The translations under genes and the position numbers were made by a program. Positions 1 through 9,886 of a stretch of 9,886 bases of DNA are shown in pieces. The first letter of the stretch is position 1. Each line of letters begins with the position of its first letter. The notes under the pieces were generated by a model. That model worked only from the letters and a program-made list of their open reading frames with translations, was not told the origin of the DNA and ran no database searches. The DNA is from a virus (Duplodnaviria; Heunggongvirae; Uroviricota; Caudoviricetes), in IMG/VR virus record IMGVR_UViG_2778261064_000002. One strand, written 5' to 3'.

Positions 1-34
1 GTCTCAACAACTGCATTGTGTGATCCTCTCACGT

Positions 35-68
35 TTATCGAATTCGATAATCAAATTCGATTATCGAA
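35..68. promoter_or_regulatory. Operator-like palindromes upstream of the HTH regulator gene: a perfect 16-bp palindrome TTATCGAATTCGATAA (35-50) and an odd-centred 13-bp palindrome TTCGATTATCGAA (56-68) sharing the half-site TTATCGAA
   Basis: Read directly from the sequence. Two adjacent dyad-symmetric sites with a shared half-site lie in an AT-rich leader about 115-150 bp upstream of the ATG at 184. Dyad sites like these are typical of dimeric HTH repressor operators. Which protein binds them is unknown. Confidence 0.4.
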
Positions 69-183
69 TGTGATAAAAGATATGCGATCAAAAGTACGCG
101 GTCAATAACTTTTTGCGTATTTTTAGTCGCGCAAGCACAAAAGTACGCACATGCTTGTAACCTGTTAATTTATATGGTGAATT

Positions 184-855
184 ATGGAAAAGAACGGAAA
201 TGCGCCAATTAACGATAAACGTACTTTTTCTTATGATGGAATAGTACGCTTTAACGAACGTCTGAGAATCGCCATGGGAGATATGAGTAATCACGCTCTT
301 GCACGGCAAAGCGGCTTATCCGAGGCATCTATAAGAAAGTATGTAAAAGGTGATAGCTATCCAACTATTGATAATGCAGCAAAAGTTGCTGATGCGTGTG
401 GAGTATCTCTTGCATGGCTGTTAACTGGTGAGGATTGCGGTACTGATGATAATCACAAACGACCAGGTGCGAACAAAAAGACGCAAAAGAAAGCGTTAAC
501 TGATGCGTACAATGATGCGCAGAACGGATTACAACTTATATTGGCTAATCTTCTACCTGAAGATGCTGAAATGTTATTCTCGACGCTATGCAAAGTAGGT
601 ATTAACGGTGTGTTGGCACGATTACACGCAACAGGCGACCATGTTTTAAGTGCTGACCCAGAAACGGTCATCCGAAGCCTGAACATCAGAGAATCGCTCA
701 AAGATGCCATTAGTGTGGCATTGGCTGGCAACGAAGAAACTGACAAAGAGATTTTGCAACGCGCCAAATCCTGTATCCGAGCAGGAACACCAGGTGATCG
801 CGTTCCCGTCACACCGGAGCAAAAAACTAAGCCTATAAACAAGAAATCAGCATAA
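184..855 (+). CDS. XRE-family helix-turn-helix transcriptional regulator (cI-like N-terminal DNA-binding domain, uncharacterised C-terminal domain), 223 aa
   Basis: ORF from the track with ATG at 184 and GGTGA 4 nt upstream. Residues about 20-80 (NHALARQSGLSEASIRKYVKG...AKVADACGVSLAWLLTGE) match the XRE/cI-type HTH followed by the characteristic VS..WLLTG motif. The C-terminal roughly 140 aa looks helical and lacks the S24 peptidase Ser/Lys hallmarks of LexA/cI autocleaving repressors. Confidence 0.8.
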   Translation: MEKNGNAPINDKRTFSYDGIVRFNERLRIAMGDMSNHALARQSGLSEASIRKYVKGDSYPTIDNAAKVADACGVSLAWLLTGEDCGTDDNHKRPGANKKTQKKALTDAYNDAQNGLQLILANLLPEDAEMLFSTLCKVGINGVLARLHATGDHVLSADPETVIRSLNIRESLKDAISVALAGNEETDKEILQRAKSCIRAGTPGDRVPVTPEQKTKPINKKSA

Positions 856-1157
856 GCGCCTCGTTTTGGCGGGGCGTGTGCTGTTAGCTAATCAGCAATA
901 ACCACAACAAAACCGAACACAACAGATGAGAACAACTTGAGGAAAACGGGCAAGGATAAAACACTTTTTAAAAGCATTTAAAACCCGTTAAGTTTGTAGC
1001 AGAACCAGATCAAAAGCGCCCAGAATAAAGCGTAAAAAAAGGCACTTTTGGTCATTTCTCACAAATCCGCCCAGAATCACACTGAATCACCACACCCCGC
1101 GCCACGCAAGGCTTGCAGGTTCTACCAGGCTGCACGAACTCCACCCAGAATTGATCG

Positions 1158-1700
1158 CTACCCCACAGTTGCTCCCACTTTTACACTGGCAGATGCCGGT
1201 GCCACCGTCAGCCCGGTAACGCTCACTGTTTCAGTGCCTTCCTCTGCCAGATACGGACGCCCCACACCGCTGATTTTCACAGTGCGGGTCATCACGTCTT
1301 TTGAGGCAATGGTTTTACCCAGTGAACTCAGCCAGCCACGGAAAACATCAACAGTACCGTTGGGATATTTGATACGAAACGCGCAGACTTCACCGGAGTC
1401 GAACAACTGAACCAGTTTTTTCTGCCCGCTGTCACCCGGACGCCAGGCCAGCGTCGCCGAAGTATCACCGACTGATTTCTGCCCCTGGGTTGTCGTTTTC
1501 CAGTCTGCATCTTCATCATCGAGATAAGTATCATCTTCTGCATCAGCGGTCATTTCGCCAGGTTGCAGATCCTTCACCATCGCAAGACGCAGCCAGTCAG
1601 TGTCTGACAAAGGGTTCGCAAATGCGTCGCCGTTGCCGGTATACATCCAGAACGTCGTCCCCGCACCTTTCGTCTTTGCCAGTGGATTTGGTGTGGTCAT
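1158..1700 (-). CDS. V: Major tail tube protein, lambda gpV homologue, C-terminally short (180 aa; lacks most of the Ig-like C-terminal domain)
   Basis: Translation from the ATG at 1698-1700 ([36 protein letters not shown]...YLDDEDADW...[12 protein letters not shown]...[12 protein letters not shown]...) aligns closely with lambda gpV as I recall it ([36 protein letters not shown]...). Strong RBS AAGGAGGTG upstream. The upstream in-frame extension of the track ORF to 1775 is rejected. The ORF stops at TAG 1158-1160 where lambda V continues. Confidence 0.9.
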
Positions 1701-1710
1701 TGCCACCTCC

Positions 1711-2112
1711 TTAATTCGTGTACGTGATCTGGTACGTGATTTCCGCCATCGCCCAGGTGGCCATCTCATTATCACGTTGATAGTTAAAACCGAGTGGGAT
1801 CAGGGTGTCGATGAGTCCGGAAAGTGCCGGTACATCATTCAGGGCCGGGAAAATGGTGCTCTCCATCCACATATCCAGCTCTGAATCCGGTGCCTGTGCC
1901 CGGATGAAGACAGCAATATGCAGAACAGCCTGCCAGTCATCTTCATCCGTCATTTTTCCGGTGTACTGAGCATCACTCAGCCACACCGCCACGGCAGGCA
2001 GTTCCTGCGCATCAACAAATGCCGGAAGCCCGTCAAAAAACGTGGCGCTGTCTCCACACTGTTCCCGAAGGCGTGCCAGTACGACCTGGCGGATTTGTGT
2101 ATGTCGGTTCAT
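1711..2112 (-). CDS. U: Tail terminator protein, lambda gpU homologue (133 aa from ATG at 2110-2112; alternative ATG at 2122-2124)
   Basis: Translation ([15 protein letters not shown]...ATFFDG.PA..D...PAVAV.L....YTG...D..WQA.LHI.VF..AQ.PDSELD.WMES...P......PALS.LI......Y.RD......A..TY.ITY) closely matches lambda gpU as recalled. The ATG at 2110-2112 forms an ATGA overlap with the Z stop codon. Confidence 0.93.
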
Positions 2113-2687
2113 CGGGTCAGCCATAACCTCAGTTGTTGTTTCAGTGCATACCCCAGCTGTTTCGGCATTTCCGCAGCAATGATGCGGTCGCGGGCATCTT
2201 CAAATGCCTGTGTCAGCGGTCCGGACAGCGGGATTTTCACCACATCAATGGGGTAACGATTTTTGCCATCAATACGCCGCATCACATGCCAGCGACCATT
2301 CGCCAGTTGCTGAATAAACGCATCCCGGAAAAGATATTTACCCACCTTCAGCACACTGCCACGGTACTGCAGTTTTCCACCACGCCGGGCCAGTCTGACC
2401 CGGGCTGTCCCCAGCTTAATGGCGGGCAGATTGCCCCGGTTAACGCGGATCCTGGCCGTCATTTTTCCTGACGGACTGGCTTTAAACACCCGGACACGCT
2501 GACGTACCAGTTTCAGGGGGATCCCTTTCACCTGGTTATCTCCCGCAACGGTATTCCCGGCAACCTGCCGGGTGGCAACCGAGACCGCTTTCTGTGCCAC
2601 ACGGTTTATCGCCCATGCGCTGGCCTGTGGTACCATACGGGTATCAAGGCTGTTCAGATTGCGGATGGCATTCTCAAGCCCCTTCAT
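2109..2687 (-). CDS. Z: Minor tail protein / tail completion protein, lambda gpZ homologue (192 aa)
   Basis: Translation MKGLENAIRNL...AINRVA...RIRVNRGNLPAIKLGTARV...FIQQLANGRWHVMRRIDGKNRYPIDVVKIP...LGYALKQQLRL closely matches lambda gpZ as recalled, and has the same length. RBS AGAGGTG upstream of the ATG at 2685-2687. Confidence 0.93.
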   Translation of the reverse strand: MKGLENAIRNLNSLDTRMVPQASAWAINRVAQKAVSVATRQVAGNTVAGDNQVKGIPLKLVRQRVRVFKASPSGKMTARIRVNRGNLPAIKLGTARVRLARRGGKLQYRGSVLKVGKYLFRDAFIQQLANGRWHVMRRIDGKNRYPIDVVKIPLSGPLTQAFEDARDRIIAAEMPKQLGYALKQQLRLWLTR

Positions 2688-2698
2688 CCCACACCTCT

Positions 2699-2974
2699 TT
2701 ACTCAATAAAGATCATTGGCTTACCGTTAAAGCGTTCATGCCGTGTGACCGTCCATTGTTGTTCGTCATAAACAACGCGATCCCCGCGCCGTGGGCGATA
2801 TCCCGAAGAAAACACCACCAGAGAGACCGCAGGTCCGGACAGAGCATTCAGCTCTGCCAGTGTTTCTCCCAGGATCACAGTCATATCGACATCATTAATC
2901 GAGGCTGTCTTTCCCATCTTTCTGACCGTGATAGCATCCATACGCGCTGCCAGCCGGGAAAAGGGATCAGACAT
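2699..2974 (-). CDS. Head-tail joining protein, gpFII-like (91 aa)
   Basis: Small ORF directly between the head and tail genes. The N-terminal pattern MSDPFSRLAARMDAITVRKMGKTASI resembles lambda FII (MADFDNLFDAAIARADETIRGYMGTSATI) and it has an RGD-containing C-terminal region. Its start overlaps the stop of the upstream DUF2190-like gene by 8 nt. Confidence 0.7.
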   Translation of the reverse strand: MSDPFSRLAARMDAITVRKMGKTASINDVDMTVILGETLAELNALSGPAVSLVVFSSGYRPRRGDRVVYDEQQWTVTRHERFNGKPMIFIE

Positions 2975-3290
2975 TGAGTTTTACCGGCACTTCTTCTGCA
3001 CTGGTTCCAGCATCTGCCCAGACAACCCCGACCAGCGGATCAGAGCCGCTGTTAGTCAGCTGAACTTTTCCGGACTTCAGATAAACCTTCTTACCCGTTT
3101 TCATGTCATCCGTTTTCAGCTTAGGCAGCATAAACACACCTTCGGTCAGGCCGTCGCCTGTTTCACCCTGTGGAATATCGGTCAGCGTCACCGCAAAAAC
3201 ATCGCCCACCTGCACCAGATCTCCGCTGCTGATGGCTGCACTGGCAACAATCGCCACCGTTTTTCCTTCTTCTACAAAATTCTTTGCCAT
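2967..3290 (-). CDS. DUF2190-like small phage head protein (putative capsid decoration/cement protein), 107 aa from ATG at 3288-3290
   Basis: Begins MAKNFVEEGKTV...SGDLV.VG..F.V...DI..G..G....EGVF.LPK, the pattern I recall for DUF2190-family proteins encoded just after major capsid genes. GGAG RBS upstream. The track ORF start at 3335 is an upstream in-frame extension and is rejected. Confidence 0.7.
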   Translation of the reverse strand: MAKNFVEEGKTVAIVASAAISSGDLVQVGDVFAVTLTDIPQGETGDGLTEGVFMLPKLKTDDMKTGKKVYLKSGKVQLTNSGSDPLVGVVWADAGTSAEEVPVKLNV

Positions 3291-3333
3291 AACTGTCTCC
3301 GCACAGCCCCGTTCAGGGGCTGATTTCAGGTAC

Positions 3334-3353
3334 AAAAAAAGCCCTTACGGGCC
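3334..3353 (-). terminator. Candidate intrinsic terminator or mRNA 3' stabilising hairpin just downstream of the capsid gene (minus-strand GGCCCGTAAGGGC stem-loop followed by T7)
   Basis: Plus strand 3334-3353 is AAAAAAA followed by GCCCTTACGGGCC, so the minus-strand RNA forms a short GC stem (4-5 bp, 4-nt loop) followed by seven U. It lies 24 nt after the capsid stop. A second 7-bp hairpin (3304-3322, CAGCCCC-gttca-GGGGCTG) sits between it and the next RBS. The stem is short, so it is probably only a partial terminator. Confidence 0.45.
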
Positions 3354-3376
3354 ATCAGAGTTGTTGTCTGCGACGT

Positions 3377-5335
3377 TTACGCCGTACATTTCACCAGACC
3401 GCGGTGATCAACTGGCGCGACACCGGCGTCAATACGCACTTTCGTTGTCACGCCATCCACACTGAAGCCCTCCATCTGATCAATATATGGCGTATCCACA
3501 CCGTTGAGATAAGCCACTTCAATCGTATCGGAGCCTTTGGACGCAGCCAGGTAGAAAGTGGTCTGGCTGTTATCATCAAGACGAGGCTCTGCAATAACGG
3601 TCGCAAAATCTTTCACCGGGTTAATAATACCGGCGTTAATGTCAGCCCCCTTGACACTTGAGGAGCGAATGACCTGGTTAGCAACAGACTCCATCGCCGT
3701 CGGTACCAGTACGAACGCAGGACGAATATTCAGATGACGCTCCCCCTCTTTCTGAACACGCATCAACTGGCGGGCTTTATCCAGCGATGCCACGTCCATT
3801 GCAGCGCTCTCCAGTACGTTTGCATGTTTCGCTTTATCGAACAGACTTACATTATCTGTGGATATTTTCGGGTTAGACGTCAGAATGGCATAAACCAGAT
3901 CGGCAATAGTGGATTTCGCCGCACGACCCAGTTTCATCGGGACATCGGTCAGCATATTCAGATCATCATTGATAATGGCCTGACGGGTGATACTGAACAG
4001 CTCGCCATAGGTCGCCAGTGCAATAGTGGCCTGTTTATCTCCGGTGGTGACGTATTTATATTCCGCCCCTTCACGCACCTGACGCAGAGCACTGAAGCCC
4101 CCCATACCCACACGATGGGCAATTTTAAAATCAGACAACTGACCTTTCCGCGTCCACTGTTCATAGGTTTCAGGGGCATCTTCCCAGCCCTGCAGAATGG
4201 CTTTGTTCGCAACATCCAGCAGAATATTACCGAAGTCAGACGTACTGTGTGTGAACGCCGCACCGACCATCTGCATCGGGTTATAACTGGAAACCCCAAT
4301 CCCCCGTTCAGTCAGTGACATACGAGCATATTCACGCAGGGTCATCCCGTTGTAGACATTATCACGTTCGGTTTTTTCAAATCCGGCACGCGCCATCAGC
4401 GCCTGGCGGATCCCGTCCCCCACAAAATTACCGTTACCGGCATAAATATGAGCCGGGGTATTTTTATTGGATGGCGTGGACTCGCGCCCCATCTCGTTCA
4501 ACAGCTTTTCGCGGGCCTGCTCCAGCGAACATTCAGGATCGGCAAGACACTGAGCCTGCAGCGTCTGATAACGCCCGCCAAACATGGCAAACAAATCATT
4601 AATACCGTTTACACGCGCTTTTTGCTCTGCCAGTACCTGCGCACGGATACTGTTTTCATCCACCACGGGTGCTGCTGCCTGCACTGGCGTCCGGGAGGCT
4701 ACAGGTTCATTATCCTGTACGCGTGGAGCACTGTTGCGTGGCGGAGTAATCATGTTTCGAATGGATTCCGGCATCTTTTTAAATTCCTCTGTACGTTTTG
4801 ACTGAATACATGCCATTGCCTTAACGGCTGGCGTTACCTGATCAGCAAATCCATGTGCCAGACATTCGGCACCGGACATCCAGGTCTCATCCGCCAGCAT
4901 GGCAGCAATTTCATCGGTGGTTTTCCCGGTTTTCTGTGCATAAGCGGGTAACAGAACCGCCTCAACCTTATCGAGCAGGTCGGCATAGGTGCGCATGTCT
5001 TCCGCATCACCGCCCGTAAAGCCAAATGGTTTATGAATCATCATGAAGGTGTTTTCCGGCATAATGACCGGGTTTCCCACCATCGCAATGACCGACGCCA
5101 TTGACGCCGCCACACCGTCGACATAAACGGTAATGGACGCACCATGTGTTTTCAGCGCATTAAAAATGGCGATGCCTTCAAAGACATCGCCACCCGGTGA
5201 ATTAATATGGAGATTAATGTGGGTGATATCGCCCAGTGCATTCAGATCACTGATAAACTGCTTCGCTGTAACACCCCAGAAACCAATCTCGTCATAAATA
5301 TAAATATCCGCGTCACTCTGGTGACCAGCCTGCAT
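3377..5335 (-). CDS. Prohead protease (ClpP/S14-like), scaffold-like linker and HK97-fold major capsid protein fused in one ORF (652 aa from ATG at 5333-5335)
   Basis: The N-terminal roughly 200 aa carry ClpP-family hallmarks (INSPGGDVFEG, GVAASMASVIA with the catalytic Ser, MIHKP with the catalytic His; compare E. coli ClpP INSPGG / GQAASMG / MIHQP). The middle roughly 130 aa are Ala/Gln/Glu/Arg-rich and scaffold-like. The C-terminal roughly 320 aa look like a major capsid protein. The track ORF (739 aa) has an 87-codon upstream extension overlapping the portal gene; I take the ATG 13 nt after the portal stop. Confidence 0.88.
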   Translation of the reverse strand: MQAGHQSDADIYIYDEIGFWGVTAKQFISDLNALGDITHINLHINSPGGDVFEGIAIFNALKTHGASITVYVDGVAASMASVIAMVGNPVIMPENTFMMIHKPFGFTGGDAEDMRTYADLLDKVEAVLLPAYAQKTGKTTDEIAAMLADETWMSGAECLAHGFADQVTPAVKAMACIQSKRTEEFKKMPESIRNMITPPRNSAPRVQDNEPVASRTPVQAAAPVVDENSIRAQVLAEQKARVNGINDLFAMFGGRYQTLQAQCLADPECSLEQAREKLLNEMGRESTPSNKNTPAHIYAGNGNFVGDGIRQALMARAGFEKTERDNVYNGMTLREYARMSLTERGIGVSSYNPMQMVGAAFTHSTSDFGNILLDVANKAILQGWEDAPETYEQWTRKGQLSDFKIAHRVGMGGFSALRQVREGAEYKYVTTGDKQATIALATYGELFSITRQAIINDDLNMLTDVPMKLGRAAKSTIADLVYAILTSNPKISTDNVSLFDKAKHANVLESAAMDVASLDKARQLMRVQKEGERHLNIRPAFVLVPTAMESVANQVIRSSSVKGADINAGIINPVKDFATVIAEPRLDDNSQTTFYLAASKGSDTIEVAYLNGVDTPYIDQMEGFSVDGVTTKVRIDAGVAPVDHRGLVKCTA

Positions 5336-5348
5336 CCTGAACCAGGAA

Positions 5349-6857
5349 TTATTCTTCGGACTGGTCGTCGGTGTGCTGCGGCTCCTGTCGTTTCGTTGCG
5401 GCACTGCTGCCTCCTTTATCACTGGCCGGATCAGTATCAAATACCAGATCCAGCTTGCGGTTTTCATCAATTTCGGCCTTGCGCCGACGTTTGACATCAT
5501 CCGGATTACGACCACCAGCACGTACCCAGTCTGATTCTGTCGCCGCTCCACCACGAATCTGGATTTTCCAGGCCTCAGCCTCCTTAACAGGGTCAATCCA
5601 CGGCATCACTGGTCCGGAATACACCGCGGTATACAGTGAAGAACGGTCAAGATCGCGGGGTAGCCTGATAACACCGGATGCCACAGCCTGTTTCAGCCAG
5701 GCACGATACATCGGGCGGGTGACGGCACCAATAAACCAGTCCTGCAGGATCAGGTAGCCATCAGTAGACTCAACCAGTTCCTGACGCTGGGCGCTGTAAG
5801 TGCCGTTATAGTTGCGTGCCGTACTGGAAAAACTCAGACGACTGCCCGCCGCCACGGCACGCAACTGACCATTACGAAAAGTTTCAAGGTTAGGATTGGG
5901 ACGATCCGACTTCACCATTCCGATTTCTTCGCCGGGTTTCAGATCGTCGTAAATAATGCCTGGCTGAATGGTAAGCTCGCGTTCATTCTCCTTGCTGCCA
6001 TTACCATCCGGTTCATAGCTCTGCCCGTCGCCTTTGCGGATGTACATCCCCAGAGCAGCGGCGATCCTTGCTGCAGTCAGCTCAGAATCTTCATACTCTT
6101 TCAGGGCACTGAGGCGGATCAGCACACCGGACAACAAAGACGTCCCGCGCATCTGGTGCAGACGGCGAACAAATTTAAGATGCAGCATTCGCTCTGCATC
6201 CACTTCTTTGGTTTCCATCTGCCGCCCGGATACGGGACGGCTTTTATACACCAGATATTTTTCGGGACGCCCCCAGTCATCAACAAACACGCCCTGATTC
6301 AGCCTGTTGCTCTCATCACTGGTCATGGGAATAAAGTCCGGCTCGAGCGCCTCCAGCCAGAAATGAACACCGGCAGAAGGCGTCAGGCTGTTTATGCGCC
6401 CGGAAACCATCTGGGCAAACACCTCACCATCGCGCAGCCAGGTACGCAGCATCAGACGTTCCAGCATCGGACGGGTAAACTGCCCGGTGACTTCCGGACT
6501 GACAGACCATTCACTCCATCGGGTGCGTATCTCCGCTGCCAGATCACGGGCAATGGCCCCATTGCGTAATACCGGATGTGGCTCGACAATAATCCCGTTT
6601 TTCCCCACCACCCGTTCTTCCAGCTTGTCAAATACACCAATAACCAGATCGTGGTTGTTATCAAGGTAACGGGCCTGCTCACGTAACGACACGGCCCCGT
6701 ACTGGCTTAACTGGTCGGCAGTTCGGTTTTCCCGCCGGGCTTTGTGTGTCCGCGTCGTTTTTACGGCCTCATAAGCCTGGATCACCGCACGGGAACGCAG
6801 CCTTGCCGCTTTCCATCCTGGTGAAAAAACGCCAATCACATCATCAAGAATTGCCAT
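5349..6857 (-). CDS. Portal protein, lambda gpB family (502 aa from ATG at 6855-6857)
   Basis: Large ORF between the gpW-like and protease-capsid genes. The internal segment LRAVAAGSRLSFSSTARNYNGTYSAQRQ resembles lambda gpB LRYIAAGLGVSYEQLSRNYAQMSYSTARAS, and the C-terminus is acidic. The ATG start overlaps the W stop codon (TGATG). The track ORF begins at an upstream GTG (6929), which I reject. Confidence 0.88.
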   Translation of the reverse strand: MAILDDVIGVFSPGWKAARLRSRAVIQAYEAVKTTRTHKARRENRTADQLSQYGAVSLREQARYLDNNHDLVIGVFDKLEERVVGKNGIIVEPHPVLRNGAIARDLAAEIRTRWSEWSVSPEVTGQFTRPMLERLMLRTWLRDGEVFAQMVSGRINSLTPSAGVHFWLEALEPDFIPMTSDESNRLNQGVFVDDWGRPEKYLVYKSRPVSGRQMETKEVDAERMLHLKFVRRLHQMRGTSLLSGVLIRLSALKEYEDSELTAARIAAALGMYIRKGDGQSYEPDGNGSKENERELTIQPGIIYDDLKPGEEIGMVKSDRPNPNLETFRNGQLRAVAAGSRLSFSSTARNYNGTYSAQRQELVESTDGYLILQDWFIGAVTRPMYRAWLKQAVASGVIRLPRDLDRSSLYTAVYSGPVMPWIDPVKEAEAWKIQIRGGAATESDWVRAGGRNPDDVKRRRKAEIDENRKLDLVFDTDPASDKGGSSAATKRQEPQHTDDQSEE

Positions 6858-7075
6858 CAGAACCTCGCCAGCCGGTACCCGGGATGCCCCCGTCGTCGTG
6901 TAATCAGAGCCGCAAGGCGGCGCTCCCACTCCTGCCGTCCCTGCCGGATCTCAGATAAGTTTTCCATGGTCATCTGCTGACCATTAAAGGTGACGGATTT
7001 TCCGTCCAGCACCGCCATTTCAGCTTCCGTATAACGCTGAATCATGGCTTCGATATCATTCTGGTTCATAACCAT
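6857..7075 (-). CDS. W: Head-tail connector / head completion protein, gpW-like (72 aa; alternative ATG at 7067-7069)
   Basis: Small ORF between the large terminase and portal genes, as in lambda. The C-terminal RRRGHPGY matches lambda gpW RRRGPAGF, and the central region is similar. Its start overlaps the large terminase stop codon. Confidence 0.75.
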   Translation of the reverse strand: MVMNQNDIEAMIQRYTEAEMAVLDGKSVTFNGQQMTMENLSEIRQGRQEWERRLAALITRRRGHPGYRLARF

Positions 7076-9168
7076 CCTCCGGAAGTCAGCCAGGGGTTAA
7101 CATCGTCAGTTACTGTTTTCTTCCGTTTTTGTTTTTTAACAGGCGTGGATACCGGTTCCGGTGAGGGTGACGGTTCGGTACTGTCCGGGACACACTCCAG
7201 CCAGGTTTCCCGGCTCGCCCACTCCGGTGCATCCGGCCAGCGGATCTTTTCGTATCCATGCAGAATGACCAGAGCCTCGGCATACACCATCAGGTCAAAA
7301 GCTTCGTTGGCACCGCGACCCGGCTTACTCCATTTCCCGTCACTGCTCCGCTCTTCATACGTCAGTTCGTCGTAAAACCAGCTCCCCAGCCAGTCAGGGA
7401 AATGCACATAGCCGGGACCTGGCGAGTCACGCCATAACGCGTTATTCACCCGGTCTTTCAGGGCATCCGTCTGAAGAAGCCAGAGCGGCACATCACCTGC
7501 GGCCTGCGCCCGTCGGCCCGTTCGTCCGGTGTTATCAGGGAATGTACGGGTGATCAGTTTTGCGCGCCGGATGCTGTCGCCCTTAAACAGGTAAATACGT
7601 TTACCAAGGCCATCACGACGGCAACGACGCCAGAATTTATAGGCATTATCAGTGACCCCGTCTTCACCGCCGGAGTCCACCGCCATTGCCATCAGTCGCA
7701 TTTGTTGAGAAGGATCGGAGGCCAGCGGCCAGCTTTTATGAAAAACATCCGTCAGCAGGACATCCCAGTCTTCCGGATAGCTGGCCGGATCAATTCGCTG
7801 GCTCTCCCCGTCGCTGTCACCGCGCAATGACTGCGTGATGTTGTAACGATCAATAATCCAGCGTTCACCACGGCTGCCATAGCCCGTTACCTGAACCACA
7901 AAACGGCGATGACGTCCCGCCTGCACATCCACTGTCGCCACAAGGAAATTAACGCCATCCGGCACACTGCGGGAAGGAACTGGCTCTGCCCGCTGCTCAA
8001 GCAGTTCACTTTTTCGTTGCTCCATGCTGGCGCGGGGAAGATAAGGTAATCCCCAGTCGGTATTGATAACCGTCTTGAGTGTTTCTTCACTTCCGGTTGT
8101 CTCGTATTCCTGTTCTGCAGTAAGCAGTTTGTAAACGAGTTGCGAGAGTGTCTGGTAAGCAGCTGCCGGACCCTCCATCCAGAATGACGCAATACGTGAA
8201 CGTCGGGGATCACCATAACGACTGCCATCCGCATTGATGGATTCACCATCCCGCAACCAGACCCCACGTCCGTTCAGCTCACGTTTTTGTTCAGGCATAA
8301 TCCGTCCTGAACAGGAAGGACACTGAATATAAGCCGCCTCACTTGCCAGCACGGGATCGGCAATATCACGGAAACCAGCAACCACATCGCCGCAGGGCTG
8401 AAAATACTCACCACAGTGTGGACAGGGCCAGTACCAGCGACGGCGATCGCCACGGTTATAGAGCGACAGTATCCCCGTGGTTGGCGGAGCCTCATGCGGT
8501 GAAGTCCGTCGCCATTTCACATCCTTCACATCCCTGCCGGGGGAACTCTCCACCAGCGTCATACCACTGGACATAAATGTGGTGGTACGTTTTGAGGCAA
8601 GAGAGAAGGCATCCCCCTCGCCATCAATATCTTCCGGAAAACGGTCATAATCCGTCAGCGCGACGCATTTATAATCTGATGAGGACATGATATTGACTGA
8701 TGGCCAGCCGATTTTCAGGTAGTTGCCAGCAAGGAATGTTCTGTCATAAACGTTGTTGTCATTTTTGTTCGGACTCAGGCGACTGACCACTTCCGGGCTG
8801 ACGCGAAACGTTCTGGCAAGTCGTTTTTTGGAGTGTTCGCGGGCTTTTTCCTCCGTCATCTGAATGATCAGCATATCCGCAGGATCGCAAATCACGTTGT
8901 AAATCACCCAGCCGTCAATCAGGCCGATAGTCTTGCCGGTTCGTGCCGGACCAACAAATATCACTGCGTCGTATTCACGCGAGGCCAGGCAGTTCATCGG
9001 CTCAATAACATACGGTGCGACCAGCGGATCCCACGGGACTGAGTTCCCGGCCCCCATGGGCACCTGCATATACTGAGCAACGGCATCAGCAACCCGCATT
9101 CGTCTCGGTGCGCGAAGGATATAACCTGAATCGGTTCGTGCTGCCTTTGCGGTTTCCTGATTCAGCAT
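7066..9168 (-). CDS. Terminase large subunit, gpA family (700 aa)
   Basis: Walker A-like motif VGPARTGKT near the N-terminus and a Cys/His cluster WPCPHCGEYF...CPSC comparable to the lambda gpA ACPHCGE region, with size and position matching. The start ATG overlaps the small terminase stop (TAATG), with GGAGG RBS. Confidence 0.93.
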   Translation of the reverse strand: MLNQETAKAARTDSGYILRAPRRMRVADAVAQYMQVPMGAGNSVPWDPLVAPYVIEPMNCLASREYDAVIFVGPARTGKTIGLIDGWVIYNVICDPADMLIIQMTEEKAREHSKKRLARTFRVSPEVVSRLSPNKNDNNVYDRTFLAGNYLKIGWPSVNIMSSSDYKCVALTDYDRFPEDIDGEGDAFSLASKRTTTFMSSGMTLVESSPGRDVKDVKWRRTSPHEAPPTTGILSLYNRGDRRRWYWPCPHCGEYFQPCGDVVAGFRDIADPVLASEAAYIQCPSCSGRIMPEQKRELNGRGVWLRDGESINADGSRYGDPRRSRIASFWMEGPAAAYQTLSQLVYKLLTAEQEYETTGSEETLKTVINTDWGLPYLPRASMEQRKSELLEQRAEPVPSRSVPDGVNFLVATVDVQAGRHRRFVVQVTGYGSRGERWIIDRYNITQSLRGDSDGESQRIDPASYPEDWDVLLTDVFHKSWPLASDPSQQMRLMAMAVDSGGEDGVTDNAYKFWRRCRRDGLGKRIYLFKGDSIRRAKLITRTFPDNTGRTGRRAQAAGDVPLWLLQTDALKDRVNNALWRDSPGPGYVHFPDWLGSWFYDELTYEERSSDGKWSKPGRGANEAFDLMVYAEALVILHGYEKIRWPDAPEWASRETWLECVPDSTEPSPSPEPVSTPVKKQKRKKTVTDDVNPWLTSGGWL

Positions 9169-9659
9169 TACTCCTCCTGCTGTAATTCCTCCTCATCATC
9201 CGCACCTGCTTCGGTCACCCGCAGGGCTATCTGATCGCGCAGATCATCAATAATGGACTGAACACGGCTCACAGCGGCAGGCTGCAGACCGCAGTCGCGT
9301 TCCAGAATATCCGGTAATGTCTCCAGCACCTGCACGACCGCTTTTGCCCAGATGGCAAACTCCCGTCTGACATCACTGGCCGGAATGAGTTGTGCTGTTT
9401 CCTGTTCGAACTTAAGACGCTCACGTTCAGACTGATACCAGGCTTTGCGCTCATGTGGATCCATTTCGCCCTCAGCAACCGGCGGTGGTAACCCCATAAA
9501 TTCAGTCAGAATATCGGTCAACCGGTATAGCTTGAGTTTGTCATGTCCACCAGCGGGACGAATGTTTTTCAGTCTTGCCACGACAGTCTGGCGGTGCAGA
9601 CCAGATAAAGCCGCCAGTTGATTAATATTCAGCACCAGGTTTTTCAACTCATGATCCAT
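9168..9659 (-). CDS. Terminase small subunit, Nu1-like (163 aa)
   Basis: First gene of the packaging operon, immediately upstream of and overlapping the large terminase gene. N-terminal HTH-like segment (LVLNINQLAALSGLHRQTVVARLKN) and acidic C-terminal tail (DDEEELQQEE), as in Nu1-type small terminases. Strong RBS GGAGGAAAT before the ATG. Confidence 0.8.
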   Translation of the reverse strand: MDHELKNLVLNINQLAALSGLHRQTVVARLKNIRPAGGHDKLKLYRLTDILTEFMGLPPPVAEGEMDPHERKAWYQSERERLKFEQETAQLIPASDVRREFAIWAKAVVQVLETLPDILERDCGLQPAAVSRVQSIIDDLRDQIALRVTEAGADDEEELQQEE

Positions 9660-9886
9660 ATTTCCTCCGGAGAGCTTTAAACATGCATCGTGCGAACAAC
9701 TTTAAGAAAACGCGTTCGATGTCGAACAAAAAACACTCAATTCGACATACAAAAAACAAACAACCATTAATAATCAATAAGATGCAAAGATGATGGTGGC
9801 CGATAAAAAGTAACCGGCTCATTTAAACCGTCTGGTCTGTTTCCTCCGGCTCTACAAAAATAATGTCCATCATTTTTAATGGACAC
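9660..9886. other. Non-coding region upstream of the small terminase gene; candidate cos / terminase-recognition region with TCGAAC/GTTCGA repeats and a terminal 7-bp inverted repeat
   Basis: No credible ORF. Imperfect palindrome GTTCGATGTCGAAC (9714-9727), inverted copy TTCGACAT (9741-9748) and CGAAC at 9693-9697. Inverted repeat TGTCCAT-cattttta-ATGGACA at 9864-9885. By analogy with lambda, cosB/cosN lie within about 200 bp upstream of Nu1. The cos assignment is inferred from position only. Confidence 0.25.

What the first reader, a model, noticed from the sequence alone, without database searches (positions are those of the whole stretch)
184..855. Orphan cI-like HTH regulator with an unrecognised C-terminal domain, convergent on the truncated tail gene
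The N-terminal domain is a clear XRE/cI-type HTH (…ACGVSLAWLLTGE), but the C-terminal roughly 140 residues lack the S24 peptidase Ser/Lys dyad used by LexA-like autocleaving repressors. This architecture would fit an antirepressor-controlled or otherwise non-SOS-cleaved repressor. Its position is also odd: it lies downstream of the tail genes and convergent with them, not in a normal immunity region. It may belong to a neighbouring element, for example a second prophage or island fused by the deletion that removed the tail genes.
Basis: partly seen in the sequence, partly recalled or inferred. Interest (0 to 1): 0.5.

Follow-up and report, generated by a model that had tools for sequence, protein, structure and literature searches.

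The report
Repressor of an inserted Mu-like prophage
The "orphan" regulator is the lysogeny (c) repressor at the left end of a Mu-like transposable prophage that has jumped into the tail-tube gene of a lambda-like prophage; this explains its odd position and is a known kind of event.

Summary
ORF 184-855(+) is a real 223-aa protein with a confident XRE/cI-type HTH (aa 23-81) and an all-helical C-terminal part with no S24 peptidase. The "orphan" reading does not hold.

Window 1-1167 is 100% identical to the left end of a complete 36.9-kb Mu-like prophage in E. coli OkiPb01701, where it splits fliH. That prophage carries ner, Mu transposase, MuB-like ATPase, kil, mor, gpT head and sheath tail genes. 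The same end (...CTACCCCACA) abuts unrelated genes in 49 complete E. coli genomes.

In the window it ends at 1167, inside codon 178 of a lambdoid major-tail gene. So the tail gene is interrupted by transposition, not shown to be deleted. A divergent ner (cro-like) gene starts at window nt 16.

The protein matches PHROG 3037 full-length and is about 30% identical to c repressors of Pseudomonas transposable phages. Its C-terminal module recurs behind four different DNA-binding domains, including the Mu-type domain, and shows weak collinear similarity to the Mu repressor C-terminus.

Likely operators are six AAAGTACG-like half-sites (91-248). The 35-76 palindromes track Ner, not c.

The inducing signal is untested. 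I infer Mu-like proteolytic control, not SOS autocleavage. Verdict: ordinary, a new member of a known kind.

The parts
1..16 (-). First five codons (MQLLR) and one further base of the divergent ner-like (cro-like) gene. The contig ends here.
   Evidence: In the identical OkiPb01701 sequence the CDS L001 19747-20016(-) starts at window nt 16. It is 89 aa with Pfam HTH_35 at E=1.1e-19.
35..76 (.). Overlapping TTATC-N6-GATAA palindromes (35-50, 49-63 degenerate, 61-76). Probable Ner operators in the leader of the early transcript.
   Evidence: They keep the same positions in prophages whose c repressor has a different DNA-binding domain, but are absent where ner is of another type.
77..105 (-). 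Candidate early promoter Pe for ner-A-B (-35 TTGACC at 105-100, -10 TATCTT at 82-77).
   Evidence: Consensus scan only, 9 of 12 matches. Its function is inferred.
91..248 (.). Six AAAGTACG-like half-sites (91+, 116-, 140+, 189+, 220-, 241+). Probable c-repressor operators, flanking the -35 of Pe and overlapping the 5' end of c.
   Evidence: All five AAAGTACGC-like matches in the 9886-nt window fall within 91-249; the sixth site, AAAGAACG at 189, comes from the 8-mer scan. The same six positions are kept in AVS0151, which has a near-identical HTH, although the surrounding DNA has diverged. They are replaced by other repeats where c has a PF07022 or PF02316 domain.
184..855 (+). c (lysogeny) repressor gene of the Mu-like prophage, 223 aa plus stop.
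   Evidence: PHROG 3037 'transcriptional repressor' matches at 2.8e-37 over aa 11-214.
250..426 (+). XRE/cI-type helix-turn-helix DNA-binding domain (aa 23-81).
   Evidence: Pfam HTH_3 at aa 27-79. AF2 gives five helices with pLDDT 86-93.
481..783 (+). All-helical C-terminal module (aa 100-200) shared by repressors of this phage group. Inferred to mediate oligomerisation and regulation.
   Evidence: AF2 helices. No Pfam, PDB or Foldseek match. Only 49 cluster representatives among 1.84 billion carry it. It is joined to four DNA-binding domain types.
784..852 (+). Disordered C-terminal tail ending ...TPEQKTKPINKKSA, with conserved P211 and K221. Candidate protease recognition tail (inferred).
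   Evidence: pLDDT below 50. Invariant columns. Mu repressor relatives end ...KKAV.
660..1167 (+). Segment conserved at about 78-92% among heteroimmune relatives. The mosaic breakpoint lies inside c at about aa 159-164.
   Evidence: Thirty-three records match from query 660-675 to 1167 only, eight more match there plus a short 5' piece (51% covered), and eight OkiPb genomes match over 1-1167.
856..1167 (+). Non-coding left end (attL) of the Mu-like genome, ending in 5'-...CTACCCCACA-3'.
   Evidence: Three independent insertions share the sequence up to this CA and then diverge.
1016..1151 (+). Three direct repeats CCNCCCAGAAT (1016-1026, 1067-1077, 1141-1151), lying 141, 90 and 16 nt from the tip. 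Probable transposase-binding sites, analogous to Mu L3, L2 and L1.
   Evidence: The right end of the OkiPb prophage has GCCCAGAAA at the same 16-nt distance from its tip. Binding itself is inferred.
1158..1700 (-). Truncated lambdoid major tail (tube) gene. Codons 1-177 and two bases of codon 178 are native (1700-1168). The frame then runs 7 nt into the Mu-like end to a stop at 1160-1158, giving 180 aa instead of 247.
   Evidence: The intact 247-aa gene in STEC299 is L005 2790-3533, and the match starts at 3001. Pfam Phage_TTP_12.

Best explanation
The gene encodes the c (immunity) repressor of a Mu-like transposable prophage. Window 1-1167 is the left end of that prophage. In order it contains:
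- the start of ner (1-16, minus strand);
- the ner/c control region;
- c, transcribed towards the end;
- about 310 bp of attL with three transposase-site-like repeats;
- the terminal CA at 1167.

The phage transposed into codon 178 of the major-tail gene of a resident lambdoid prophage. This is why the repressor appears 'downstream of and convergent with' tail genes.

Inferred mechanism:
- The HTH domain binds the AAAGTACG-type half-sites that flank the -35 of the early promoter and overlap the start of c.
- The helical C-terminal module assembles the protein into oligomers that occupy these scattered sites.
- This shuts off ner-A-B (transposase) transcription, maintains lysogeny and confers immunity.
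- Ner, the cro-like partner, binds the TTATC-N6-GATAA palindromes.
- With no S24 domain, the repressor cannot be inactivated by RecA-stimulated self-cleavage. I think the most likely release is Mu-like: conditional proteolysis (ClpXP, possibly Lon) through the exposed basic C-terminal tail. This last step is inference only.
For: Shown:
- 1-1167 is 100% identical to the left end of a complete 36.9-kb Mu-like prophage that splits fliH in the OkiPb strains. That prophage has ner, Mu transposase, an AAA ATPase, kil, mor, lysis genes, terL, a DUF935 portal, gpT head, sheath and baseplate.
- The same terminus ...CTACCCCACA abuts aslB, eutC, chbG, an HTH gene and others in 49 complete genomes.
- 1168 onward is a lambdoid tail gene that is intact in other strains.
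- The nearest relatives in isolated phages are c repressors at the left ends of Pseudomonas transposable phages DMS3, MP22, JBD and D3112-like phages, covering aa 18-193 at about 30% identity. PHROG 3037 matches full-length.
- There is no S24 domain and the C-terminal part is all-helical.
- Operator-motif covariation is as described, and all five AAAGTACGC-like matches in the window cluster at 91-249.
- The C-terminal module occurs behind HTH_3, PF07022, HTH_19 and the Mu-type PF02316 domain, in the same genomic position.
- Profile-profile alignment to the Mu repressor C-terminus is collinear over 79-90 columns, with E=0.013 and then 0.0025. None of 150 block-shuffles reached the real score.

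From the literature:
- Mu repressor is degraded by ClpXP through a conditionally exposed C-terminal determinant (PMC10584840, discussion).
- Mu-like phages are often found inserted in other prophages of STEC (PMC10132054).
Against: - The window is a whole 9.9-kb contig that stops 16 nt into ner. The rest of the Mu-like prophage and its right junction in the source genome were not seen, so a truncated remnant is not excluded.
- Operator and promoter assignments rest on motif clustering, covariation and a simple consensus scan, not on binding data. No convincing sigma-70 promoter for c itself was found.
- Similarity to the Mu repressor C-terminus is weak. BLASTP finds nothing, and an HMM search of 1.84 billion representatives with the C-terminal profile did not retrieve Mu repressor.
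- The ClpXP idea has no direct support here.
- The repressor's DNA-binding domain is unrelated to the transposase N-terminus. So the Mu-specific repressor/transposase competition at the enhancer may not apply.
Confidence: 0.88

Rival explanations
1. One reading: an orphan cI-like regulator from a neighbouring island or prophage, brought next to the tail genes by a deletion that removed the distal tail genes.
For: The tail gene is truncated and the two segments have different origins. The distal tail genes are not in the window.
Against: The breakpoint coincides to the base with the conserved terminus of a transposable phage seen at many unrelated loci. The regulator has its normal partner gene ner 168 bp upstream. 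In complete genomes the interrupted target genes continue on the other side of the prophage, for example fliH, eutC and chbG.
Confidence: 0.04
2. Only a left-end remnant of the Mu-like prophage survives in the source genome. The repressor would then be a stand-alone immunity gene protecting the host from related Mu-like phages.
For: The contig ends 16 nt into ner, so nothing beyond is documented.
Against: The 1167 bp are 100% identical to an intact prophage, which argues for a recent, undecayed insertion. A contig break exactly where the sequence becomes shared with other Mu-like early regions looks like an assembly break at a repeat. The same contig occurs in 4 samples.
Confidence: 0.1
3. The repressor is inactivated by a small antirepressor protein, possibly under LexA control as in Gifsy-type prophages, rather than by proteolysis.
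For: The protein lacks an S24 domain. The early region of the complete relative holds many small proteins of unknown function.
Against: No PHROG or NCBI annotation of an antirepressor was found among ten early proteins or in the whole prophage. The module architecture and the basic C-terminal tail resemble Mu repressor, for which ClpXP control is documented (PMC10584840).
Confidence: 0.15
4. It is a host XRE-family regulator or an antitoxin (HigA/HipB-like) unrelated to phage immunity.
For: There are weak sub-threshold NCBIfam hits to antitoxin models.
Against: All those hits lie far below the curated cut-offs and cover only the HTH. Every homologue whose context was examined sits at a Mu-like left end next to ner and the transposase.
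Confidence: 0.01

Closest known systems
c repressors of Pseudomonas transposable phages (D3112/DMS3/MP22/JBD group; PHROG 3037)
   Same: The position is the same: about 300 bp from the left end, transcribed towards the end and divergent from the early operon. Both have a cI/XRE-type HTH followed by a non-S24 C-terminal part. Similarity of about 30% spans aa 18-193, and the PHROG 3037 match is full-length.
   Different: Identity is only about 30%. The host phage is a myovirus-type E. coli Mu-like prophage (sheath and baseplate genes), not a D3112-like siphovirus. The closest isolated-phage transposase is 49% identical or less.
Phage Mu repressor Rep (c, 196 aa)
   Same: It has the same role and the same place in the genome. 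It has the same two-part plan with a helical C-terminal part and a basic C-terminal tail. There is weak collinear profile similarity of the C-terminal parts. Sister proteins join this same C-terminal module to a Mu-type PF02316 domain.
   Different: The DNA-binding domain is an XRE HTH, not the PF02316 winged helix shared by Mu Rep and MuA. No pairwise similarity is detectable, and the HMM search does not reach Mu Rep.
Lambda cI / LexA-type autocleaving repressors
   Same: The N-terminal HTH is of the same class (Pfam HTH_3, Phage_CI_repr), and both work in a divergent repressor/cro-like switch.
   Different: There is no S24 peptidase domain. The C-terminal part is all-alpha, so RecA-stimulated self-cleavage is not expected.
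Mu-like prophages inserted in other prophages of STEC (Sp18-like; Stx phage records LC727881 and LC727895)
   Same: This is the same kind of event: a Mu-like phage inserted in a lambdoid prophage (PMC10132054 reports 6 of 10 Mu-like phages inserted in mobile elements).
   Different: Here the target is a morphogenesis (tail tube) gene of a non-Stx lambdoid prophage. Relatedness to Sp18 was not tested.

Membership tests
Transposable (Mu-like) prophage left end | Element terminus is identical at independent insertions and flanked by unrelated host DNA | tested here: met
   ...CTACCCCACA is followed by different sequences in the window, AVS0151, E2348/69, 08-00022, RM9088 and OkiPb. Left-end matches lie at varied loci in 49 genomes.
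Transposable (Mu-like) prophage left end | Gene order c / ner / DDE Mu transposase / MuB-like ATPase next to the end | tested here: met
   This order is seen in the identical OkiPb sequence and in four other relatives. The transposase has PF02316, rve and Mu-transpos_C. In the window itself only c and 16 nt of ner are visible.
Transposable (Mu-like) prophage left end | Termini 5'-TG...CA-3' with repeated transposase-binding sites at both ends | tested here: met
   Both ends read TG...CA, and a CCCAGAA motif lies 16 nt from each tip. The left end has three direct copies. Actual binding was not tested.
Transposable (Mu-like) prophage left end | 5-bp target-site duplication | tested here: inconclusive
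   Four insertions show 4 bp duplicated, with a fifth base that is ambiguous in three of them and mismatched in OkiPb. The window's own right junction is not available.
PHROG 3037 / D3112-type c repressor | Full-length profile match covering both the HTH and the C-terminal part | tested here: met
   E=2.8e-37, aa 11-214 against profile positions 6-187 of 189. tblastn to annotated c repressors.
Mu Rep family (Pfam PF02316 repressors) | N-terminal Mu-type winged-helix DNA-binding domain shared with the transposase | tested here: not met
   Pfam finds HTH_3 and not PF02316. There is no similarity to the transposase N-terminus.
Mu Rep family (Pfam PF02316 repressors) | Homologous C-terminal oligomerisation/regulatory part | tested here: inconclusive
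   hhalign gives E=0.013 and 0.0025, and 0 of 150 block-shuffles reach the score. BLASTP and the large HMM search are negative.
Mu Rep family (Pfam PF02316 repressors) | ClpXP-dependent degradation through the C-terminal tail | not testable with these tools
   Only the tail sequence ...NKKSA can be compared with ...VKKAV.
LexA/cI S24 autocleaving repressors | C-terminal Peptidase_S24 domain with a Ser/Lys dyad | tested here: not met
   No Pfam hit for aa 90-223 at E<=10. The AF2 model is all-alpha.
Antirepressor-controlled repressors (Gifsy type) | Cognate antirepressor gene in the same element | tested here: inconclusive
   None is recognisable in the complete relative, but several early ORFs have unknown function.

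The most novel reading that the evidence does not exclude
The C-terminal roughly 120 residues are a portable 'transposable-phage repressor module' (oligomerisation plus a protease-sensing tail). It would be homologous to the uncharacterised C-terminal half of Mu repressor, and recombination would have attached it to at least four unrelated DNA-binding domains to create new immunities. All these E. coli, Salmonella and Yersinia Mu-like prophages would then share one SOS-independent, ClpXP-type induction logic whatever their operator specificity.
Probability: 0.35. Interest if true: 0.45.

Novelty: new member of a known kind. Interest (0 to 1): 0.25.

Why it matters
The main value is correct annotation. 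What looked like a misplaced orphan regulator and a deleted tail region is a prophage-in-prophage insertion. That insertion probably disables tail production by the lambdoid prophage, and it adds a mobile mutagenic element to the genome.

There is a secondary point. The repressor's helical C-terminal module has no Pfam family and no solved structure. It is shared by a small family (49 clusters at 50% identity among 1.84 billion representatives). It is recombined with different DNA-binding domains, which makes it a compact natural example of immunity switching by domain swap. If it proves homologous to the Mu repressor C-terminus, it would give comparative data on how Mu-type repressors sense host physiology.

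Tried and rejected
- Exact search for the 40-nt junction in one genome per species found nothing, so the source genome is not in that collection.
- Exact-protein look-up identified the source as contig PTRP01000062.1 of GCA_002965585.1. The contig is the whole window, so no further flank could be read.
- Foldseek of the C-terminal model against PDB and BFVD gave nothing below E=0.4. The AlphaFold-database library was unavailable.
- A profile search of PDB sequences gave nothing below E=0.1.
- Pfam on the C-terminal part gave nothing.
- BLASTP against Mu repressor gave nothing.
- BLASTP against the transposase gave nothing meaningful.
- An HMM search of 1.84 billion representatives with the C-terminal profile did not retrieve Mu repressor.
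- Rfam found no RNA family in the window.
- The simple promoter scan found no convincing promoter for c.
- A PHROG scan of ten early-region proteins found no antirepressor.
- I tried to settle the target-duplication length on four insertions. It remained ambiguous between 4 and 5 bp.

Full report
**1. The observation**

The ORF at 184-855(+) exists and encodes 223 aa. The identical sequence is annotated as a CDS with the same limits in complete E. coli genomes, and the gene caller used for the source contig agrees. Homologues share the N-terminal MEKNG... start.

Domain evidence:
- Pfam finds HTH_3 at aa 27-79 (E=1.7e-10) and Phage_CI_repr.
- Residues 90-223 hit no Pfam model even at E<=10.
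- AlphaFold2, run on a 23-sequence family alignment, gives a confident five-helix HTH domain (aa 23-81, pLDDT about 90).
- A disordered linker follows (86-105), then five helices (100-122, 125-154, 159-165, 170-180, 184-200) and a disordered tail (201-223).

An S24 peptidase is a beta fold, so its absence is confirmed. The palindromes at 35-76 are real. The neighbouring minus-strand tail gene is truncated.

**2. Where the gene really sits**

Megablast of window 1-1800 against 5,426 complete E. coli genomes splits the query sharply:
- 1-1167 is 100% identical to eight OkiPb strains.
- 1168-1800 matches lambdoid tail genes in about 2,600 other genomes.
- No genome has both parts together.

In OkiPb01701 the 1167 bp are the left end of a 36.9-kb prophage that splits fliH. 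Its genes run in this order:
- the HTH protein in question;
- a divergent 89-aa HTH_35 (Ner-type) protein;
- a 680-aa transposase with PF02316, rve and Mu-transpos_C domains;
- an AAA ATPase, a Kil homologue and Mor;
- holins and an endolysin, terL and a DUF935 portal;
- a gpT-type head protein, then tail sheath, tape measure, baseplate and fibre genes.

This is the gene order of phage Mu.

The 3' part of the left end (window 660-1167) occurs in 49 complete genomes next to unrelated genes. These include aslB, eutC in E2348/69, ypdF, phnJ, chbG, yfcC, an RHS gene, a TonB receptor gene, a phage capsid gene and a holin gene. Alignment of three insertions shows identity up to ...CTACCCCACA and unrelated sequence after it. 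Three further insertions agree.

Both ends of the element read TG...CA and carry a CCCAGAA motif 16 nt from the tip. The left end has three direct CCNCCCAGAAT copies at 16, 90 and 141 nt from the tip, against about 0.08 expected in shuffles. So window 1167 is the terminus of a transposable phage genome.

**3. The target**

In STEC299 the same lambdoid region is uninterrupted. A 247-aa major tail protein gene (L005 2790-3533) is followed by the G, T and tape-measure genes. The window matches from L005 3001, which is inside codon 178.

In the window the frame runs 7 nt into the Mu-like end and stops, giving a 180-aa product with Pfam Phage_TTP_12. The rest of the window (1168-9886) is an ordinary lambda/Gifsy-type head and tail module. 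It contains DUF1441, GpA terminase, portal, a ClpP-capsid fusion, a cement protein, and Gifsy-2, Z-like and U-like proteins.

The tail gene is therefore interrupted by an insertion. Nothing shows a deletion.

The window is the whole contig PTRP01000062.1 of GCA_002965585.1 and ends 16 nt into ner. The other junction therefore could not be read.

Insertions of Mu-like phages into other prophages are documented:
- In STEC CC119, 6 of 10 Mu-like phages sit in mobile elements (PMC10132054).
- Two Stx phage records are annotated with an inserted Mu-like phage.

**4. What the protein is**

- The full-length match to PHROG 3037 'transcriptional repressor' has E=2.8e-37.
- The best tblastn hits among 50,697 phage records are the annotated c repressors at the left ends of Pseudomonas transposable phages (DMS3, MP22, JBD16C, H70, JD024 and others). 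They cover aa 18-193 at about 30% identity, are encoded 215-1100 nt from the genome end, and are transcribed towards it.
- In the window the stop codon lies 312 nt from the terminus and the gene points at the terminus. This is the same layout as Mu c, at 339-929 in Mu.

The suggested divergent cro-like gene is there: ner starts at window nt 16.

**5. The C-terminal module**

The database search found 72 relatives in Escherichia, Salmonella, Shigella, Yersinia, Citrobacter, Edwardsiella and Plesiomonas. They share the motifs ...GIKGVLxRLQ...AIRSLNIRESLKDAICMALAGNEETDKEIL...TPEQETKPVxKKxA.

Their N-terminal domains differ: HTH_3, PF07022 (CI_repr), HTH_19, and in P0069, P0099 and P0100 the Mu-type PF02316 domain. 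P0069 lies in the same place, divergent from ner-transposase-ATPase.

At DNA level, most heteroimmune relatives become similar to the window only from nt 660-675, about aa 159-164. So the immunity region is mosaic, with a breakpoint inside c. The tail also occurs as two alleles (QRAKSCIRAGTPGDRVP versus RRIESRARxGSPGGQT) that are reshuffled among N-terminal types.

A profile of the module finds only 49 clusters (50% identity) among 1.84 billion representatives. It has no relative in PDB by sequence or by fold.

Comparison with Mu repressor gives mixed results:
- BLASTP finds nothing.
- Profile-profile alignment is collinear over the whole C-terminal part, with E=0.013.
- With a 108-sequence profile, E improves to 0.0025 over 79 columns.
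- None of 150 block-shuffled controls reaches that score (mean 12.4, sd 2.4, maximum 19.7, against 21.9).
- The large HMM search does not retrieve Mu repressor.

I rate homology to the Mu Rep C-terminus as possible, not established. Both families end in a disordered, proline- and glutamate-rich tail with a basic terminus (...KKSA or ...KKxA/G here...KKAV in Mu).

**6. Control region**

Six AAAGTACG-like half-sites lie at 91(+), 116(-), 140(+), 189(+), 220(-) and 241(+). All five matches to AAAGTACGC (one mismatch or none) in the 9.9-kb window fall in this 159-nt stretch; the sixth site, AAAGAACG at 189, is an 8-mer match with one mismatch.

- In AVS0151 the repressor has a nearly identical HTH but is otherwise 58% identical. 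The same six positions carry the motif there, although the DNA between them has diverged.
- In E2348/69 and 08-00022 (PF07022-type repressors) the motif is absent and AAAGAAA-type repeats take its place.
- In the PF02316-type element TGTTTAAA repeats take its place.

The motif thus covaries with the repressor's DNA-binding domain, so these half-sites are the best operator candidates.

A minus-strand promoter-like site (-35 TTGACC at 105-100, -10 TATCTT at 82-77) lies between the first two half-sites and faces ner.

By contrast, the TTATC-N6-GATAA palindromes at 35 and 61 keep their positions across XRE-type and PF07022-type repressors, where the Ner proteins are 49% identical. They are missing where ner is of a different type. 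They are therefore more probably Ner sites.

All binding assignments are inferences.

**7. How it probably works**

Shown: the identity, position and architecture of the gene, and the absence of an S24 domain.

Inferred:
- Oligomers formed through the helical module occupy the scattered half-sites.
- They block the early promoter and so silence ner, the transposase and the ATPase.
- Sites overlapping the 5' end of c may give autoregulation, as O3 does in Mu.

Derepression cannot use RecA-stimulated self-cleavage. For Mu, ClpXP degrades the repressor through a C-terminal determinant that is exposed conditionally (PMC10584840). The shared architecture and tail make the same logic my preferred guess, at roughly 35-40%.

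An unrecognised antirepressor among the many small early ORFs remains possible. None is identifiable.

One difference from Mu stands out. The transposase keeps a PF02316 N-terminal domain while this repressor has an XRE HTH. The direct repressor/transposase competition for the operator-enhancer described for Mu need not hold here.

**8. Verdict**

This is a correctly observed gene with a partly wrong interpretation. It is the immunity repressor of a Mu-like prophage inserted in a lambdoid tail gene. That makes it a new member of a known kind.

The element group is not represented by a closely related isolated phage: the best transposase match is 49% identical and the best repressor match among phage records covering most of the protein is about 34%. 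The repressor's C-terminal module is uncharacterised, which gives the finding modest residual interest.

Noticed in passing
L001 21160-21175, L002 16515-16530, L003 195-215; L008/L009; L013; L014/L015: The target duplication of this Mu-like group is unclear. With TG...CA ends, only 4 bp are duplicated in OkiPb fliH (CAAT; the intact target is CAATC). In three other insertions the fifth base is T on both sides (AGTG|T, CAAG|T, AGCG|T). So it is either a 4-bp duplication or a 5-bp one with an atypical right terminus. Mu makes 5 bp.
   Followed up: partly
window 1 and 9886: The window is a complete 9,886-bp contig (PTRP01000062.1, GCA_002965585.1), and the same contig is seen in 4 samples. It breaks 16 nt into ner, within the stretch (window 1 to about 83) that is shared with heteroimmune relatives. 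This suggests an assembly break at a repeat, possibly a second Mu-like copy in the genome.
   Followed up: partly
window 660-855 (c codons about 159-223): There is a mosaic breakpoint inside the repressor gene. Two alleles of the C-terminal tail (QRAKSCIRAGTPGDRVP versus RRIESRARxGSPGGQT) are reshuffled among different N-terminal domain types. P0001 is 93% identical to the window protein but carries the other tail.
   Followed up: partly
window 189-248: Three of the six operator-like half-sites lie inside the first 22 codons of c itself. This is reminiscent of Mu, where, from memory and not checked here, the repressor-binding region is said to reach the start of c.
   Followed up: no
L001 20001-21167 with L002 16518-16865 (OkiPb01701): In eight bovine OkiPb strains the identical Mu-like prophage interrupts fliH, which should abolish flagellar export and motility.
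   Followed up: no
L008 1998-2435 and L009 2662-7492 (E2348/69): In EPEC E2348/69 a related Mu-like prophage splits eutC, and an ISEc13 element splits eutA nearby. The ethanolamine operon is therefore hit twice.
   Followed up: no
L001 14961-15194: The early region of the Mu-like prophage encodes a 77-aa protein that NCBI names 'ANR family transcriptional regulator' (AraC negative regulator type). PHROGs lists its function as unknown.
   Followed up: no
L013 9735-14682 (strain 08-00022): A related Mu-like prophage is itself inserted in an HTH-protein gene and carries an IS66-family ISCro1 element inside its tape-measure gene. Mobile elements are nested three deep here.
   Followed up: no
window 1158-1167: The truncated tail-tube ORF reads across the junction and ends at a stop codon supplied by the Mu-like end. 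It gives a 180-aa protein that lacks the C-terminal 70 residues.
   Followed up: yes
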